DNA of 64,000 bases from positions 1,054,001 to 1,118,000 of the forward strand of contig CAUYUJ010000114.1 of assembly GCA_963575745.1 (NCBI GenBank). The letters run 5' to 3'. Both the position numbers and the translations under genes were made by a program. Shown in pieces: positions 20,618-23,698 of this stretch (position 1 is its first letter; each line of letters begins with the position of its first letter). A model generated the notes under the pieces. It was given only the letters and a program-made list of their open reading frames with translations, did no database searches and had not been told where the DNA came from. The stretch comes from Prorocentrum cordatum. Taxonomy: Eukaryota.

Positions 20618-23600
20618 ATGTTTCGTTTCGATGGCTTGCTGCAACGACGAACATGCGGCTGTCCTCTGTTCCGGTTGGCATGCACTTCCGCCTTGGCCGC
20701 ATCGGTGATGGTCGCTCTTCTCAGGAGGCGAAATGCGCGAGCGCCCGCTGACTCCGACAGAGAGCTCGGAGGTTTCGCGGCCGCACGTGCTTGCGACAAC
20801 AAGCGTTGCCTTGGATCAGTCGGGTGGAGCACTGGATGTGTTACAATGACGGAGTGTTCGGGCTGCCCCCAGTGCAGCTACACGTGGCAAAGAATGCTGG
20901 CCGTTGCACCGGCAGCGGCGAGTGCTGAAGCATTGGCAGGGCGGCCACGGGCCGCGGCGGAGAGTACTACCATGCTGGCCTACACCGGGCACGCCATCGG
21001 TGGACCCGTTGCAAGCGCCAGATCGAATACTAGCTCCTGGTTCGCGCCTGCACGCCCATCTGCGGACGAAAAGCCTGGTGAGAACGGGGCCGTGCCTTCG
21101 GCGAGGGAGGCCACCACAACCACCGAGACCACGACGTCTTCGTCCAACACTCGGCAGCCGTACTCGCTGCTTCCTCCAGATCAGAGCTGTGCATCGTACC
21201 AGCTCGCTGACGTGCTTTCCGAGGATGAGTGTTTCGGAGATGCTGTGCAGCATAATCGAGTTGGCTTGGGCGACAAGCAGACTATCGGAAAGCCCACTTG
21301 GGATGGCATGAGTTTTTACGGCTGCGTGTATAACATTGAAGCGGACTTGGTCATGTTCAACGATCAGTCACCGAACCCGAGCTACACTTCAACACAACAA
21401 CAAAACATCTGCCTTGGCGTGGCAACCACAACCACCTCTTCAACCTTCACTATCACAAGTTCGAGCACTTTGTCGAGCAGTGAGACCAGAAGCAGCACCA
21501 GCCCGACCAGCAGCACCAGCGAAACCACCACGACCCGGACCAGCAGAACCCTGACCAGCATCAGCGAGATCAGCGTGACCAGCATCAGCGAGACCAGCAG
21601 CACCAGCGCGACCAGCATCAGCGAGACCAGCAGCACCGCAACCAGCAGGACCCTGACCAGCACCGCAACAAGCAGGACCCTGACCGGCACCAGCACGACC
21701 AGCATCAGCGAGACCAGCAGCACCGTAACCAGCACCGGAACGACCATCACTGGAACGACCAGCACAAGCGAGTCCAGCATCACCGCCACTACTGTTTCCA
21801 ACACGCATCAGCCCTATTCCTTGCTTCCTCCAGATCAGAGCTGTGCATCGTACCAGCTCGCTGACGTGCTTTCCGAGGATGAGTGTTTCGGAGATGCTGT
21901 GCAGCATAATCGAGTTGGCTTGGGCGACAAGCAGACTATCGGAAAGCCCACTTGGGATGGCATGAGTTTTTACGGCTGCGTGTATAACATTGAAGCGGAC
22001 TTGGTCATGTTCAACGATCAGTCACCGAACCCGAGCTACACTTCAACACAACAACAAAACATCTGCCTTGGCGTGGCAACCACAACCACCTCTTCAACCT
22101 TCACTATCACAAGTTCGAGCACTTTGTCGAGCAGTGAGACCAGAAGCAGCACCAGCCCGACCAGCAGCACCAGCGAAACCACCACGACCCGGACCAGCAG
22201 AACCCTGACCAGCATCAGCGAGATCAGCGTGACCAGCATCAGCGAGACCAGCAGCACCAGCGCGACCAGCATCAGCGAGACCAGCAGCACCGCAACCAGC
22301 AGGACCCTGACCGGCACCAGCGCGACCAGCATCAGCGAGACCAGCAGCACCGCAACCAGCAGGACTTTGACTGGCACCAGCACGACCAGCATCAGCGAGA
22401 CCAGCAGCACCGCAACCAGCAGGACCCTGACCGGCACCAGCGCGACCAGCATCAGCGAGACCAGCAGCACCAGCGCGACCAGCATCAGCGAGACCAGCAG
22501 CACCAGCGCGACCAGCATCAGCGAGACCAGCAGCACCAGCACGACCAGCATCAGCGACACCAGCAGCACCGCAACCAGCAGGACCTTGACTGGCACCAGC
22601 ACGACCAGCATCAGCGAGACCAGCAGCACCGCAACCAGCAGGACCCTGACCAGCACCAGCGCGACCAGCATCAGCGAGACCAGCAGCACCAGCGCGACCA
22701 GCATCAGCGAGACCAGCAGCACCAGCGCGACCAGCATCAGCGAGACCAGCAGCACCAGCGCGACCAGCATCAGCGACACCAGCAGCACCGCAACCAGCAG
22801 GACCCTGACTGGCACCAGCACGACCAGCATCAGCCACACCAGCAGCACCGCAACCAGCAGGACCTTGACTGGCACCAGCACGACCAGCATCAGCGAGACC
22901 AGCAGCACAGTAAACCATGATCTGACGTGGCTCGGCATGGACCAGAGTACATCTAGCGCGGGAGTGACGAGCATTGAAGTCATGATTCTGTTCGGTCTTG
23001 TCCTCGCGGGCGGCATCGCTATGTGGGTCTTTGCGGTCACAATCATCACGAGGTACCAGCGTCGAAAGCGCGCGGCAACAACCGCGCCCACGGACCTTCT
23101 TAGCCATTCGGGTCAGCCTGGAGCCCTGCGGATCAGTGCGCAAGCTTGCGACGCTGACCCTGGCACTGCGGGCGGGCCGGTCTCCCCGCCCCTGCCGCCG
23201 CGGGTCGGCACGGCGCCAGCGGGCACCCGTGGCCAGCCGTCTGCCAGCCTCGAGGGGGCCATCCGCGAGGCTTTCGGGTCCATGGGCGAGTTCAAGGCCC
23301 GCTTCGAGGCCCAGTGCGCCCGAGGTGGCTCCGCCTGGGCCTGGCTCGTGGTGACCGCTGACAGCAGGCTGGCTATCACGTCCACGCTGAGCCAGGAAAA
23401 CCCCTTCGTGGACGGCGCCGAGGAGGATATCCCTGGGGCCCCAATCCTGGCCTGCAGCGTCTGGGATCACGCCAGCGGCCTGGAGCAGTTCCAGTGCCAG
23501 CACCAAGCCTACATGCAAGCTTGGTGGAGAGTGGTGAATTGGGAGACCGTCAGTACATTGTACGACGAGGCCCTCAATAGCAAGGCCCCAACTACCGAGG

Positions 23601-23698
23601 GCAACCTTGTCGGTGATACAACTGTGGAATGTACTCATATGCCGCCGATTGGCAGTGCGCCCTTGCATCGGCCCGTGGCGATACCTGATATTTGGTGA
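20618..23698 (+). CDS. 1026-aa membrane protein: two Cys-containing modules, Ser/Thr mucin-like stalk, TM helix, degenerate Fe/Mn-SOD C-terminal domain
   Basis: Intronless ORF starting directly after a perfect SL. About 90-aa module QPYSLLPPDQSC...NICLGVA twice (654-nt offset). TSISETSS repeats. TM IEVMILFGLVLAGGIAMWVFAVTIIT followed by RYQRRKR. Tail AIREAFGSMGEFKARF...GSAWAWLVV...NP...PILACSVWDHA...WWRVVNWETV matches the Sod_Fe_C pattern. Exact start and stop uncertain. Confidence 0.8.
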   Translation: MFRFDGLLQRRTCGCPLFRLACTSALAASVMVALLRRRNARAPADSDRELGGFAAARACDNKRCLGSVGWSTGCVTMTECSGCPQCSYTWQRMLAVAPAAASAEALAGRPRAAAESTTMLAYTGHAIGGPVASARSNTSSWFAPARPSADEKPGENGAVPSAREATTTTETTTSSSNTRQPYSLLPPDQSCASYQLADVLSEDECFGDAVQHNRVGLGDKQTIGKPTWDGMSFYGCVYNIEADLVMFNDQSPNPSYTSTQQQNICLGVATTTTSSTFTITSSSTLSSSETRSSTSPTSSTSETTTTRTSRTLTSISEISVTSISETSSTSATSISETSSTATSRTLTSTATSRTLTGTSTTSISETSSTVTSTGTTITGTTSTSESSITATTVSNTHQPYSLLPPDQSCASYQLADVLSEDECFGDAVQHNRVGLGDKQTIGKPTWDGMSFYGCVYNIEADLVMFNDQSPNPSYTSTQQQNICLGVATTTTSSTFTITSSSTLSSSETRSSTSPTSSTSETTTTRTSRTLTSISEISVTSISETSSTSATSISETSSTATSRTLTGTSATSISETSSTATSRTLTGTSTTSISETSSTATSRTLTGTSATSISETSSTSATSISETSSTSATSISETSSTSTTSISDTSSTATSRTLTGTSTTSISETSSTATSRTLTSTSATSISETSSTSATSISETSSTSATSISETSSTSATSISDTSSTATSRTLTGTSTTSISHTSSTATSRTLTGTSTTSISETSSTVNHDLTWLGMDQSTSSAGVTSIEVMILFGLVLAGGIAMWVFAVTIITRYQRRKRAATTAPTDLLSHSGQPGALRISAQACDADPGTAGGPVSPPLPPRVGTAPAGTRGQPSASLEGAIREAFGSMGEFKARFEAQCARGGSAWAWLVVTADSRLAITSTLSQENPFVDGAEEDIPGAPILACSVWDHASGLEQFQCQHQAYMQAWWRVVNWETVSTLYDEALNSKAPTTEGNLVGDTTVECTHMPPIGSAPLHRPVAIPDIW

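What the first reader, a model, noticed from the sequence alone, without database searches (positions are those of the whole stretch)
20618..23698. Unusual architecture: mucin-stalk surface protein with a probably inactive SOD C-domain after the TM helix
Seen: [Cys module][S/T stalk][identical Cys module][long S/T stalk][TM about 22973-23050][RYQRRKR][Pro/Gly linker][SOD-like domain about 23237-23575]. Known: Fe/Mn SODs need two His from the N-terminal helical domain plus Asp and His from DxWEHA. Here the N-domain is absent and the motif reads SVWDHA (23456-23473; Asp ligand to Ser, Glu to Asp), while the fold residues FGS, WAWLVV, NP and VNW persist. Inference: a pseudo-enzyme domain repurposed as a cytoplasmic interaction or redox-sensing tail of a receptor-like protein. 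I do not recognise this combination.
Basis: partly seen in the sequence, partly recalled or inferred. Interest (0 to 1): 0.8.

Follow-up and report, generated by a model that had tools for sequence, protein, structure and literature searches.

The report
Membrane mucin with dead SOD tail
A red-tide dinoflagellate expresses an intronless, retro-copied gene for a mucin-like surface protein whose inner tail is a leftover half of the cell's own superoxide dismutase that can no longer hold its metal, a rare domain combination of unknown use.

Summary
ORF 20618-23698 (+) encodes 1026 aa: hydrophobic N-terminus, two near-identical Cys modules, two stalks that are 71% Ser+Thr, one TM helix, RYQRRKR, a disordered linker and a Sod_Fe_C domain (79 bits). 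No Sod_Fe_N was found. A 100% identical protein is on record as Prorocentrum cordatum.

A complete 22-nt dinoflagellate spliced leader lies in the DNA directly before the ATG. An A8 run follows the 3'UTR. A 19-nt target-site duplication brackets the unit. RNA contigs from four studies cover only this unit and join TM, linker and SOD_C without a break.

The tail derives from the species' own Fe/Mn SOD (65% identity). It is sister to that SOD in a tree, on a roughly 35-fold longer path. Three of four metal-ligand positions are gone, so it is not an SOD enzyme.

One relative (442 aa, 50% identical over TM+tail) has the same layout. No other turned up in searches of 5.8 billion and 1.84 billion proteins.

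The function of the tail is inferred: a non-catalytic cytoplasmic module. I rate it a new variant of known kinds, of moderate interest.

The parts
20577..20595 (+). left target-site duplication GCCCCAATATGGCGTCAAC (19 nt)
   Evidence: The exact 19-mer occurs only here and at 24649-24667 in the 64-kb window. It abuts the spliced-leader relic.
20596..20617 (+). DNA-encoded dinoflagellate spliced leader (DinoSL) relic, 22 of 22 nt, directly before the ATG
   Evidence: The sequence read equals DCCGUAGCCAUUUUGGCUCAAG as quoted in PMC6050394 (passage). The 15-nt core has 1 exact match and 2 near matches in the window, against 0.07 expected.
20618..23698 (+). coding sequence, 1026 aa plus stop; no intron needed
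   Evidence: ORF list and translation. It is 100% identical to the public P. cordatum model P0002 outside a 119-aa stretch of the repeats.
20654..20722 (+). N-terminal hydrophobic stretch aa 13-35 (probable signal peptide or signal anchor), followed by RRRNARA
   Evidence: Kyte-Doolittle mean of 1.94 for aa 17-35, the second-highest peak in the protein. No signal-peptide predictor was available.
21143..21427 (+). Cys module 1 (aa 176-270, 4 Cys), family unknown
   Evidence: No Pfam hit at E up to 10. It is 87% identical to modules of P0156, a 1281-aa P. cordatum protein in which the modules follow a hydrophobic N-terminus.
21428..21796 (+). Ser/Thr stalk 1 (aa 271-393, 71% S+T)
   Evidence: Composition and tandem repeats.
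21797..22081 (+). Cys module 2 (aa 394-488), part of a 654-nt-offset tandem duplication
   Evidence: 490 nt are 100% identical to copy 1. RNA contigs at 21696-21851 bridge stalk 1 into module 2 in 3 of 4 runs laid; the fourth (X5) reaches back only to 21706 (table 8).
22082..22912 (+). Ser/Thr stalk 2 (aa 489-765, 71% S+T), period 15/33/60/219 nt
22913..23071 (+). conserved juxtamembrane segment (WL..DQ.TSSAGV), TM helix aa 786-811 and basic stop-transfer RYQRRKR
   Evidence: Hydropathy. The segment is conserved in P0003 (alignment A1).
23072..23206 (+). Pro/Gly/Ala-rich linker, predicted disordered
   Evidence: AlphaFold2 pLDDT of 34-51 for tail residues 1-50. No significant similarity to the SOD presequence or N-domain in shuffle tests.
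23207..23602 (+). SOD-derived region: interdomain loop plus Sod_Fe_C fold (Pfam aa 875-979 = nt 23240-23554), ending in the KAPTTEG shared with the species' own SOD. The degenerate motif SVWDHA is at 23456-23473.
   Evidence: Pfam. tblastn of P0153 against the window gives 64.7% identity over 133 aa at 23213-23602. AF2 core at high pLDDT. Foldseek hits Mn/Fe SODs, rmsd 2.2 A over 115 columns.
23603..23695 (+). C-terminal extension (31 aa), partly conserved with P0003 (EC..PP..A.L..P)
   Evidence: Alignment A1. Low pLDDT.
23699..24637 (+). 3' UTR, with a CTC/TTC repeat at 23775-23847
   Evidence: RNA contigs cover 23841-24637 and stop there in all 4 runs. The longest ORF in it has no Pfam hit. 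TRF.
24638..24645 (+). poly(A) relic (A8), followed by GAG
   Evidence: Sequence.
24649..24667 (+). right target-site duplication (19 of 19 identical to the left copy)

Best explanation
This is an expressed, intronless processed retrogene of the dinoflagellate Prorocentrum cordatum.

Origin. A complete mRNA, from spliced leader to poly(A), was reverse-transcribed and inserted into a short-period repeat. This left a 19-nt target-site duplication.

Product. The gene encodes a single-pass, type-I-like membrane protein:
- Outside: an N-terminal hydrophobic signal, a small Cys-rich stretch, and two copies of a 4-Cys module, each carried on a Ser/Thr-rich (mucin-like, presumably O-glycosylated) stalk.
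- In the membrane: one TM helix followed by a basic stop-transfer motif.
- Inside: a disordered linker and a domain that descends from the C-terminal half of the organism's own Fe/Mn superoxide dismutase.

The tail is not an enzyme. The SOD N-terminal helical hairpin is gone, and three of the four metal-ligand positions are lost. The first His lay in the missing helix, the second-His column is Pro, and Asp is Ser. The Glu and Tyr-Tyr of the motif that follows the Asp ligand (assigned to the dimer interface from recalled knowledge) are also lost. The tail therefore cannot be a canonical SOD.

The conserved unit is juxtamembrane + TM + basic motif + linker + SOD_C + short C-extension. The only relative found shares it under a different ectodomain.

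Inferred mechanism. The ectodomain is an exchangeable adhesion or recognition part. The SOD-derived fold is kept as a non-catalytic cytoplasmic scaffold or binding module.

Shown: gene structure, retroposition hallmarks, transcript, descent of the tail, loss of ligands, predicted fold.
Inferred: topology, glycosylation, and any binding role of the tail.
For: Retrogene:
- A 22/22 DinoSL sits at 20596-20617 directly before the ATG (SL sequence from a passage of PMC6050394).
- An A8 run is at 24638-24645.
- A 19/19 direct repeat sits at exactly the two boundaries and nowhere else in the window.

Transcript:
- 20 of 24 listed runs, from 9 studies, hold at least half of the sampled words. 4 of them are recorded as poly(A) RNA-seq.
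- In 4 of 4 runs laid (4 studies, 2 of them recorded RNA), cover starts at 20601-20648 and ends at 24604-24637. There is none in 19600-20504 or 24668-25000.
- Contigs of 892-935 nt span 22879/22918 to 23772, that is repeat end, TM, linker, SOD_C and stop, without a joint in 3 runs. A 563-nt contig spans 23182-23743 in the fourth.
- The X1 contig starts with 4 unmatched letters and then matches from 20601. That geometry is expected for CTCAAG+CCATTTTGGCTCAAG transcripts of retrogenes (passage of PMC12014239). The letters themselves were not shown.

Tail descent:
- Sod_Fe_C scores 79 bits.
- The tail is 64.7% identical to P0153, the P. cordatum SOD that has both domains.
- In the tree of 48 rows and 137 columns, (window tail, P0003) has support 100/93 and is sister to P0153 with support 100/98, inside a clade with dinoflagellate-type sequences.

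Fold: AF2 places 72 residues at pLDDT 90 or more. Foldseek returns Mn/Fe SODs, best E 1.2e-10.

Loss of function: of 52 family-conserved columns the window keeps 33, P0003 keeps 38 and P0153 keeps 50. The ligand columns read P, S and H.

Family:
- P0003 (442 aa) is 50% identical over TM+tail and has the same order of parts.
- Both reading frames are open to a similar C-terminus.

Polymorphism: among 4 runs there is no difference in the SOD_C domain and 1 difference in the 648-nt tail, against 11 in the first 523 nt (Fisher p = 0.0017).

Ectodomain outside: the same Cys module follows directly on a hydrophobic N-terminus that I read by eye as a signal peptide in P0156.
Against: - No test shows a function for the tail.
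- Changes relative to P0153 hit conserved columns as often as variable ones (15 of 44 against 33 of 87, p = 0.70). The path from the split with P0153 is 0.68 against 0.018. Both fit relaxed constraint as well as a new function.
- Tail polymorphism is not significantly lower than in the 3'UTR (1/648 against 5/870, p = 0.25).
- Only two family members were found, one of them an unnamed 2560-nt metagenome or metatranscriptome contig whose DNA I could not fetch, so no dN/dS was possible.
- Short-read contigs do not bridge the long repeat (about 21851-22879). One-molecule continuity there rests on the retrogene structure.
- RNA contigs could come from an identical parent locus rather than from this copy.
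- Signal peptide and topology rest on hydropathy and charge only.
- 8 of the 11 differences in the first 523 nt are non-synonymous, so that part evolves fast.
Confidence: 0.6

Rival explanations
1. A young chimeric gene whose SOD-derived tail has no function of its own. The tail is a decaying passenger, kept in frame only because the gene is recent. The protein works, if at all, through its ectodomain and TM anchor.
For: - Long branches after the split from the canonical SOD (0.15 stem + 0.53, against 0.018).
- Substitutions are blind to SOD-family conservation.
- Catalytic residues, and the Glu and Tyr-Tyr assigned to the dimer interface from recall, are lost.
- Only two members were found in the two protein searches.
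- The locus is a retrocopy.
- A public alternative model (P0155, 614 aa) stops inside the repeats without TM or tail.
Against: - Two lineages, 50% identical over TM+tail, both keep an open frame through linker, domain and C-extension. Over that much divergence a neutral 215-codon stretch should have collected frameshifts or stops (inference).
- Within the SOD_C region, 31 of 45 family-conserved columns persist, including the Trp, Leu, Val, Thr and Pro positions (their reading as core positions is mine). The fold is predicted with high confidence.
- There are six shared derived residues, including a new Cys at 960.
- No polymorphism was seen in the domain in 4 runs.
Confidence: 0.22
2. The tail still does redox or metal chemistry in a non-canonical way. 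It could use a new site built from the retained His951 with the conserved Cys residues. It could instead be completed in trans by a separately encoded N-domain or by the canonical SOD, placing dismutase or a superoxide/peroxide sensor at the inner face of the membrane.
For: - The relative P0003 keeps D-V-W-E-H, that is the Asp and His ligands.
- His951 is kept in both proteins.
- Cys946 and Cys960 are kept in both, and Cys844 and Cys1005 also align with Cys in P0003.
- Membrane-bound Mn-SODs exist (PDB 1gv3, title).
Against: - The window protein lacks 3 of 4 ligand positions.
- No Sod_Fe_N is encoded anywhere in the 64-kb window (tblastn with P0153 matched only 23213-23602).
- Nothing tested here shows metal binding.
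Confidence: 0.1
3. A plastid or endomembrane precursor rather than a surface protein. On this reading, signal + Ser/Thr-rich region + hydrophobic helix is an overgrown version of the multipartite targeting presequence that dinoflagellate plastid proteins, including the parental SOD, carry. The tail would be the cargo.
For: - The parental SOD P0153 and its relatives L001 and P0004 start with a hydrophobic signal, an F(L/T)AP-like motif and a second RR-hydrophobic stretch (sequences). L013 also has a hydrophobic start, but I did not see those motifs clearly in it.
- By eye there is a GL...GG(I/V) resemblance between that stretch and the TM helix.
Against: - Local alignment of TM+linker against presequence+N-domain is not better than shuffles in 8 of 8 comparisons (96 to 761 of 1000 shuffles reach the score).
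- About 750 aa of Cys modules and repeats is far beyond any presequence (recalled knowledge).
- The Cys module is shared with a large multi-domain protein that has LRR_5 and Cys-rich repeats.
Confidence: 0.05
4. An assembly or annotation artefact that joins two unrelated genes.
For: - The repeats make assembly difficult.
- The public models disagree inside the repeat array (907 and 614 aa against 1026 aa).
Against: - The stalk-end/TM/SOD_C junction lies on single RNA contigs in 3 of 4 runs from different studies.
- The SL relic, poly(A) relic and TSD frame the whole unit.
- P0003 has the same junction.
Confidence: 0.03

Closest known systems
Fe/Mn superoxide dismutase of the same organism (P0153, 301 aa, named 'Superoxide dismutase [Fe]' by its source)
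   Same: The C-terminal alpha/beta domain is 64.7% identical over 133 aa, including the interdomain loop (AP.GT.G.PSASLEGAI) and the lineage-specific KAPTTEG end. P0153 is sister in the tree.
   Different: - No alpha-hairpin N-domain.
- Asp ligand is Ser, Glu is Asp, and Tyr-Tyr is Ser-Gly.
- A TM helix and a 785-aa ectodomain stand in place of the targeting presequence.
- The path from the split is about 35-fold longer.
P0003 (442 aa, unnamed metagenome/metatranscriptome protein, called 'superoxide dismutase' by its source)
   Same: Same order of parts: juxtamembrane motif, TM, basic motif, linker, SOD_C without N-domain, C-extension. It is 50% identical over these parts. It shares the derived residues N925S and Y960C and the loss of Tyr-Tyr.
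   Different: - Unrelated and shorter ectodomain, with no Cys module and only a short Thr/Ala/Pro/Glu-rich stretch.
- Keeps D-V-W-E-H.
- Has a partial internal repeat of the start of SOD_C.
- Organism unknown.
Membrane-bound Mn-SOD of cyanobacteria (PDB 1gv3, 'catalytic portion of a cyanobacterial membrane-bound manganese superoxide dismutase')
   Same: An Fe/Mn-SOD fold tethered to a membrane by one helix. It appears among the Foldseek hits (rank 36).
   Different: There the anchor is N-terminal to a complete, active two-domain enzyme. Here the N-domain and ligands are lost and a large ectodomain is present. That the cyanobacterial anchor is N-terminal is recalled, not tested.
Dinoflagellate retrogenes marked by DNA-encoded DinoSL relics
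   Same: A DinoSL relic lies upstream of the CDS and the copy is expressed. The literature reports many such genes, 477 in P. minimum transcriptome data (passages of PMC6050394 and PMC12014239).
   Different: Here the relic is complete (22/22), abuts the ATG with no further 5'UTR, and comes with a poly(A) relic and a 19-nt target-site duplication. No paper in the searched library held 'dinoflagellate', 'retrogene' and 'target site duplication' together.
SOD-derived non-enzymes (viral Cu/Zn-SOD-like decoys, seen in the abstract of PMC7605207; mitoribosomal Fe/Mn-SOD-like proteins, recalled)
   Same: An SOD fold kept after loss of catalysis.
   Different: Those are soluble or ribosome-bound and, as far as I recall, keep both Fe/Mn-SOD domains or belong to the Cu/Zn family. 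None is the cytoplasmic tail of a mucin-like membrane protein.

Membership tests
Fe/Mn superoxide dismutase (enzyme) | C-terminal alpha/beta domain (Pfam Sod_Fe_C, PF02777) | tested here: met
   79.3 bits against a cut-off of 20.9, aa 875-979. The fold is confirmed by AF2 plus Foldseek.
Fe/Mn superoxide dismutase (enzyme) | N-terminal alpha-hairpin domain (Pfam Sod_Fe_N, PF00081) | tested here: not met
   No hit at E up to 1 on the whole protein and the tail, nor at E up to 10 on aa 1-181 and 175-271, while P0153 scores 89 bits. tblastn of P0153 finds only its residues 140-270 in the window. Shuffle tests of TM+linker against presequence+N-domain were not significant.
Fe/Mn superoxide dismutase (enzyme) | Four metal ligands (His, His, Asp, His) | tested here: not met
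   In alignment A3 the second-His column (90% His) is Pro857, the Asp column (99%) is Ser947, and only His951 is kept. The helix with the first His has no counterpart. Assignment of these columns as ligands is from established knowledge of the family.
Fe/Mn superoxide dismutase (enzyme) | Dimer-interface Glu and Tyr-Tyr after the His (D-x-W-E-H-A-Y-Y) | tested here: not met
   Glu is Asp950 and Tyr-Tyr is Ser953-Gly954. The role of these positions in the dimer is recalled.
Dinoflagellate processed retrogene | DNA-encoded DinoSL or relic upstream of the coding sequence | tested here: met
   22 of 22 nt at 20596-20617.
Dinoflagellate processed retrogene | General retroposition hallmarks: poly(A) relic and target-site duplication at the two ends | tested here: met
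   A8 at 24638-24645. The 19-nt exact repeat is at 20577-20595 and 24649-24667 only.
Dinoflagellate processed retrogene | Collinear with the mature mRNA (no introns) | tested here: inconclusive
   All RNA contigs outside the repeats are collinear. The repeat array 21851-22879 is not bridged by short-read contigs. The only joints there are a 1031-nt skip with 11 foreign letters and a 22-nt side. The public model removes 357 nt inside the array.
Mucin-like type I membrane glycoprotein | Ser/Thr-rich tandem-repeat region | tested here: met
   71% S+T over 123 and 277 aa. TRF arrays.
Mucin-like type I membrane glycoprotein | Cleavable signal peptide and a single TM helix with the cytoplasmic side positive | tested here: inconclusive
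   There are hydropathy peaks at aa 17-35 (1.94) and 788-806 (2.41), and RYQRRKR follows the second. No SignalP or DeepTMHMM was available. The first stretch is followed by RRRN, which is unusual for a cleaved signal.
Mucin-like type I membrane glycoprotein | O-glycosylation of the stalk | not testable with these tools
   Needs biochemistry.
Membrane-bound Mn-SOD (cyanobacterial type) | Complete, active two-domain SOD attached to the anchor | tested here: not met
   See the rows on the N-domain and the ligands.

The most novel reading that the evidence does not exclude
The juxtamembrane + TM + SOD_C unit is a new kind of receptor tail. A former dismutase half would be re-used as a cytoplasmic sensor or docking site, reading superoxide, peroxide or metal status through the retained His and the conserved Cys residues, or holding the canonical SOD at the membrane. 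That would couple contact at a mucin-like, modular ectodomain to redox signalling in a bloom-forming dinoflagellate. The unit would be spread and re-equipped with new ectodomains by retroposition and module exchange.
Probability: 0.12. Interest if true: 0.75.

Novelty: new variant of a known kind. Interest (0 to 1): 0.45.

Why it matters
It is a clean, datable example of how dinoflagellates make new genes. Half of a housekeeping enzyme was cut loose from catalysis, joined to a membrane anchor, given an exchangeable mucin-like ectodomain, and copied through an mRNA intermediate.

The copy carries a full spliced leader, a poly(A) relic and a target-site duplication. That points to target-primed reverse transcription.

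If the tail proves to bind something, it would add an SOD-derived fold to the list of pseudoenzyme signalling modules. It would also give a handle on surface biology in a red-tide species, where few surface proteins appear to be characterised (my impression; not searched). If it proves inert, it shows how long a dead domain can ride along in an expressed gene.

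Tried and rejected
- Self-association of the tail: complex prediction with two copies of tail residues 55-185 gave no verdict (score 0.01, mark 0.32). It counts neither way.
- Cys module identity:
  - No Pfam hit at E up to 10.
  - The protein atlas gave only unnamed clusters at 0.86-0.87, below the level that means anything.
  - The AF2 model built from 3 rows had pLDDT 46 and was not searched.
- Remnant N-domain or presequence in TM+linker: phmmer extended the alignment to a solved SOD back to tail residue 30, with a shared 'GG'. 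Local alignments against the presequence+N-domain of P0153, L001, L013 and P0004 were no better than shuffles. I therefore place the start of homology at about aa 864.
- DNA of P0003 for dN/dS: the metagenome scan gave 51 loci. None covered query residues 1-43, the part with the juxtamembrane segment and the TM helix. The contig of P0003 was not among them, and I read only 5 of the 51.
- Own genome: none is held. I could not look for the parent locus, paralogues or N-domain-only genes.
- Other C-domain-only hits among 18 long representatives: P0058 and P0125 keep the canonical DVWEHAYY and look like chimeric or frameshifted calls, not relatives of this family.
- Empty-site test: the flanks are a degenerate repeat of about 12 nt. 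The match of the joined flanks to other arrays (74-78% identity) is therefore weak evidence.
- Supplements of the genome paper: the 2 files held as text had no 'superoxide dismutase', PF02777 or Sod_Fe_C. Other supplementary tables were not visible and may list expression or peptides for this gene.
- Earlier findings of this scan: nothing.
- Parts of the window without RNA cover (19600-20504 and 24668-25000) are used only together with the SL and poly(A) boundaries.

Full report
**What is there**

The + strand holds one open frame, 20618-23698, of 1026 codons.
- a hydrophobic N-terminus, aa 13-35;
- a short Cys-rich stretch;
- Cys module 1, aa 176-270;
- a stalk, aa 271-393, 71% Ser+Thr;
- Cys module 2, aa 394-488;
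- a second stalk, aa 489-765, 71% Ser+Thr;
- a TM helix, aa 786-811, the strongest hydropathy peak at 2.41;
- RYQRRKR;
- a Pro/Gly/Ala linker;
- a Sod_Fe_C domain, aa 875-979, 79.3 bits against a cut-off of 20.9.

Sod_Fe_N gave no hit at E up to 1 on the whole protein, nor at E up to 10 on the two N-terminal pieces given. The motif SVWDHA is at 23456-23473. The two Cys modules differ in 1 of 95 residues. The DNA is identical over 490 nt at an offset of 654.

**Whose gene**

A protein search restricted to lengths of 564-1796 aa found one hit to the tail. It is a 907-aa 'unnamed protein product [Prorocentrum cordatum]', 100% identical. That model equals this frame minus 119 aa that it removes from inside the repeat array. 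A second public model of 614 aa shares the N-terminus. It leaves the frame inside the repeats and stops. No whole genome is held for the window.

**The locus is a processed retrogene**

Directly before the ATG the DNA reads ACCGTAGCCATTTTGGCTCAAG (20596-20617). This is the complete 22-nt dinoflagellate spliced leader as quoted in PMC6050394 (passage seen). In these organisms the leader is added to mRNAs by trans-splicing. A leader written in the genome therefore marks a copy made from mRNA.

At the other end, after a 939-nt 3'UTR, comes A8 (24638-24645). The 19-mer GCCCCAATATGGCGTCAAC stands immediately before the leader and again three bases after the A-run. It occurs nowhere else in the window. 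Leader, poly(A) relic and target-site duplication together are the signature of a retroposed full-length mRNA.

The flanks are a degenerate short-period repeat, so an 'empty site' comparison with related arrays is only weakly informative. In the paper library searched, no paper held 'dinoflagellate', 'retrogene' and 'target site duplication' together. Retrogenes marked by leader relics are themselves well described, with 477 reported for P. minimum (passages of PMC12014239).

**Transcript**

Of 24 runs listed, 20 (from 9 studies) hold at least half of the sampled words of 20400-24000. Four of those are recorded as poly(A) RNA-seq. I laid four runs from four studies: X10 and X11, recorded as RNA, and X1 and X5, guessed to be RNA. 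The results:
- In all four, cover begins at 20601-20648 and ends at 24604-24637. There is none in 19600-20504 or 24668-25000. The covered stretch is therefore the unit between leader and A-run.
- Contigs of 892-935 nt run from 22879 or 22918 to 23772 in X1, X10 and X5. They put the last stalk repeats, the TM helix, the linker, SOD_C and the stop codon on one piece. X11 has 23182-23743.
- Contigs at 21696-21851 join stalk 1 to module 2 in three runs, and X5 starts at 21706. The duplication is therefore in the RNA too.
- The long array 21851-22879 is not bridged, as expected for short reads. That the whole frame was once one mRNA follows from the retrogene structure.
- The X1 contig has 4 unmatched letters and then matches from 20601. 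This is the geometry expected if the retrocopy's own transcript is trans-spliced within the relic (CTCAAG followed by CCATTTTGGCTCAAG, as described in PMC12014239). I could not see the letters.

Contigs cannot show which locus was transcribed, so an identical parent locus is not excluded.

**Where the tail comes from**

An exhaustive profile-free search of 1.84 billion representatives with the 202-aa tail gave 2805 hits at E up to 0.001, but only one at E up to 1e-30. That hit is P0003, 442 aa.

A profile search of the 5.8-billion-protein collection (lengths 141-774 aa) added P0153, a 301-aa P. cordatum 'Superoxide dismutase [Fe]' with both Pfam domains. P0153 matches the window at 23213-23602 with 64.7% identity over 133 aa. 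The match includes the interdomain loop and the end KAPTTEG.

In a maximum-likelihood tree of 48 C-domains (137 columns), the window tail and P0003 are sisters (100/93). Together they are sister to P0153 (100/98). This group lies inside a clade of dinoflagellate-type sequences, L001 and P0015, then P0004 and L013. Branch lengths are 0.53 (window), 0.25 (P0003) and 0.15 (their stem), against 0.018 for P0153. The bootstrap had not fully settled (correlation 0.976).

Upstream of about aa 864 there is no significant similarity to the SOD presequence or N-domain. Local scores were reached by 96 to 761 of 1000 shuffles in 8 of 8 comparisons. An extension of a phmmer alignment back to a shared 'GG' is too weak to count.

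**Is it an enzyme?**

Among 52 columns that are at least 80% conserved in 80 sequences that are mostly full-length two-domain SODs, the window keeps 33, P0003 keeps 38 and P0153 keeps 50.
- The column of the second ligand His is Pro857.
- The Asp column is Ser947.
- His951 is kept.
- The Glu before it is Asp, and the Tyr-Tyr after it is Ser-Gly.
- The helix that carries the first His is absent.

The ligand identities are established knowledge of the family and were not tested here.

AlphaFold2 with an 82-row alignment predicts the C-domain fold with 72 residues at pLDDT 90 or more. It leaves the linker (tail residues 1-55) and the last 35 residues unstructured. Foldseek finds Mn/Fe SODs, best 5a9g at E 1.2e-10 and rmsd 2.2 A over 115 columns. 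The fold is kept and the catalytic apparatus is not.

**A small family**

P0003 has the same order of parts. A juxtamembrane WL..DQ.TSSAGV is followed by a TM helix with GL...GGIA.W, then QRR.RAA, a linker with a conserved Cys, SOD_C without the N-domain, and a short C-extension. It is 50% identical overall.
- Its ectodomain is unrelated.
- It keeps D-V-W-E-H but has also lost Tyr-Tyr.
- It shares the derived residues N925S and Y960C with the window protein.
- Its source calls it 'superoxide dismutase'. Its contig (2560 nt) could not be fetched, and its cluster could not be listed.

Of 18 longer hits that I scanned with Pfam, 15 have both full SOD domains. One (P0031) has a glycosyl-hydrolase domain, a fragment of the N-domain and the C-domain. 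Two have the C-domain only, but with a canonical DVWEHAYY, and look like faulty gene calls.

**The ectodomain is modular**

The Cys module has no Pfam match. It recurs at 87% identity, with the same preceding linker, in P0156. P0156 is a 1281-aa P. cordatum protein with a hydrophobic N-terminus that I read as a signal peptide, Cys-rich repeats, an LRR_5 match and a hydrophobic C-terminal region. This places the module outside the cell. It also indicates that the ectodomain has been shuffled between genes.

**Constraint**

In favour of constraint on the tail:
- Two open frames are kept at 50% identity.
- The fold is predicted confidently.
- No difference was seen in the SOD_C domain among four runs. 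There is 1 difference in the 648-nt tail against 11 in the first 523 nt (p = 0.0017). Of those 11, 8 are non-synonymous.

Against:
- The tail is not significantly less polymorphic than the 3'UTR (p = 0.25).
- Changes relative to P0153 fall on conserved and variable columns alike (15/44 against 33/87, p = 0.70; for P0003 9/44 against 31/87, p = 0.11).

The SOD constraints are gone. Whether new ones replaced them cannot be settled without more sequences.

**Reading**

The best-supported account is an expressed retrogene for a type-I-like, mucin-like membrane protein whose cytoplasmic tail is a catalytically dead, fold-preserving derivative of the cell's own SOD.
- The adaptor or scaffold role is inferred.
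- A decaying passenger domain is the main rival.
- A residual redox or metal role, a targeting-presequence origin and an artefact are less likely.

**Not done**

- signal-peptide and topology predictors;
- the genome beyond the window;
- the DNA of P0003;
- full-length reads.

Noticed in passing
window 58993-59029 and 59072-63914 (+): A second retrogene candidate. A spliced-leader-like sequence (TCCGCAGCCCTTTTGGCTCAAG, 2 mismatches) is followed at once by a more decayed relic (CCGTTTGGCTCTAAAG). Both lie upstream of a fused carbamoyl-phosphate synthase: the small chain, GATase, large-chain domains and MGS lie in ORFs 58783-59598 and 59634-63911, which are in different frames. Two relics in tandem suggest two rounds of retroposition.
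   Followed up: partly
window 4701-4722 (+): A third spliced-leader relic, TCCGTAGCCATTCTGGTTCAAG (2 mismatches), directly after a CTC/CTT repeat. No gene was assigned downstream.
   Followed up: no
window 24617 (+), run X5: One contig leaves the window sequence 20 nt before the A-run and continues for 255 other letters (table 7). It could be the 3' end of a parent or allelic locus, or another poly(A) site.
   Followed up: no
window 7076-9494: Tandem copies with a period of about 1024 nt (for example 7232, 8255 and 9279) are made of the same degenerate 12-nt unit (CCCAAGAxGGCC) as the flanks of the retrogene.
   Followed up: partly
window 22322-22678 (+): The public 907-aa model removes these 357 nt as an intron, although they lie inside the in-frame Ser/Thr repeat array. 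A 614-aa model leaves the frame in the same array. No RNA contig shows either joint, and contigs are unreliable in repeats.
   Followed up: partly
P0153, L001, P0004 (N-termini): The canonical dinoflagellate SODs closest to the tail begin with a hydrophobic signal, an F(L/T)AP-like motif, and then SRR plus a hydrophobic stretch ending in A-x-A before the mature YELPP (YDLP in P0004). This resembles a twin-arginine lumen-targeting signal (read by eye).
   Followed up: no
window 19000-19384 and 25034-25775: Long microsatellites flank the region: (ACAT)n and derivatives upstream, and (AGG)n, (CGA)n and (CGG)n downstream. They produce long spurious ORFs on both strands.
   Followed up: no
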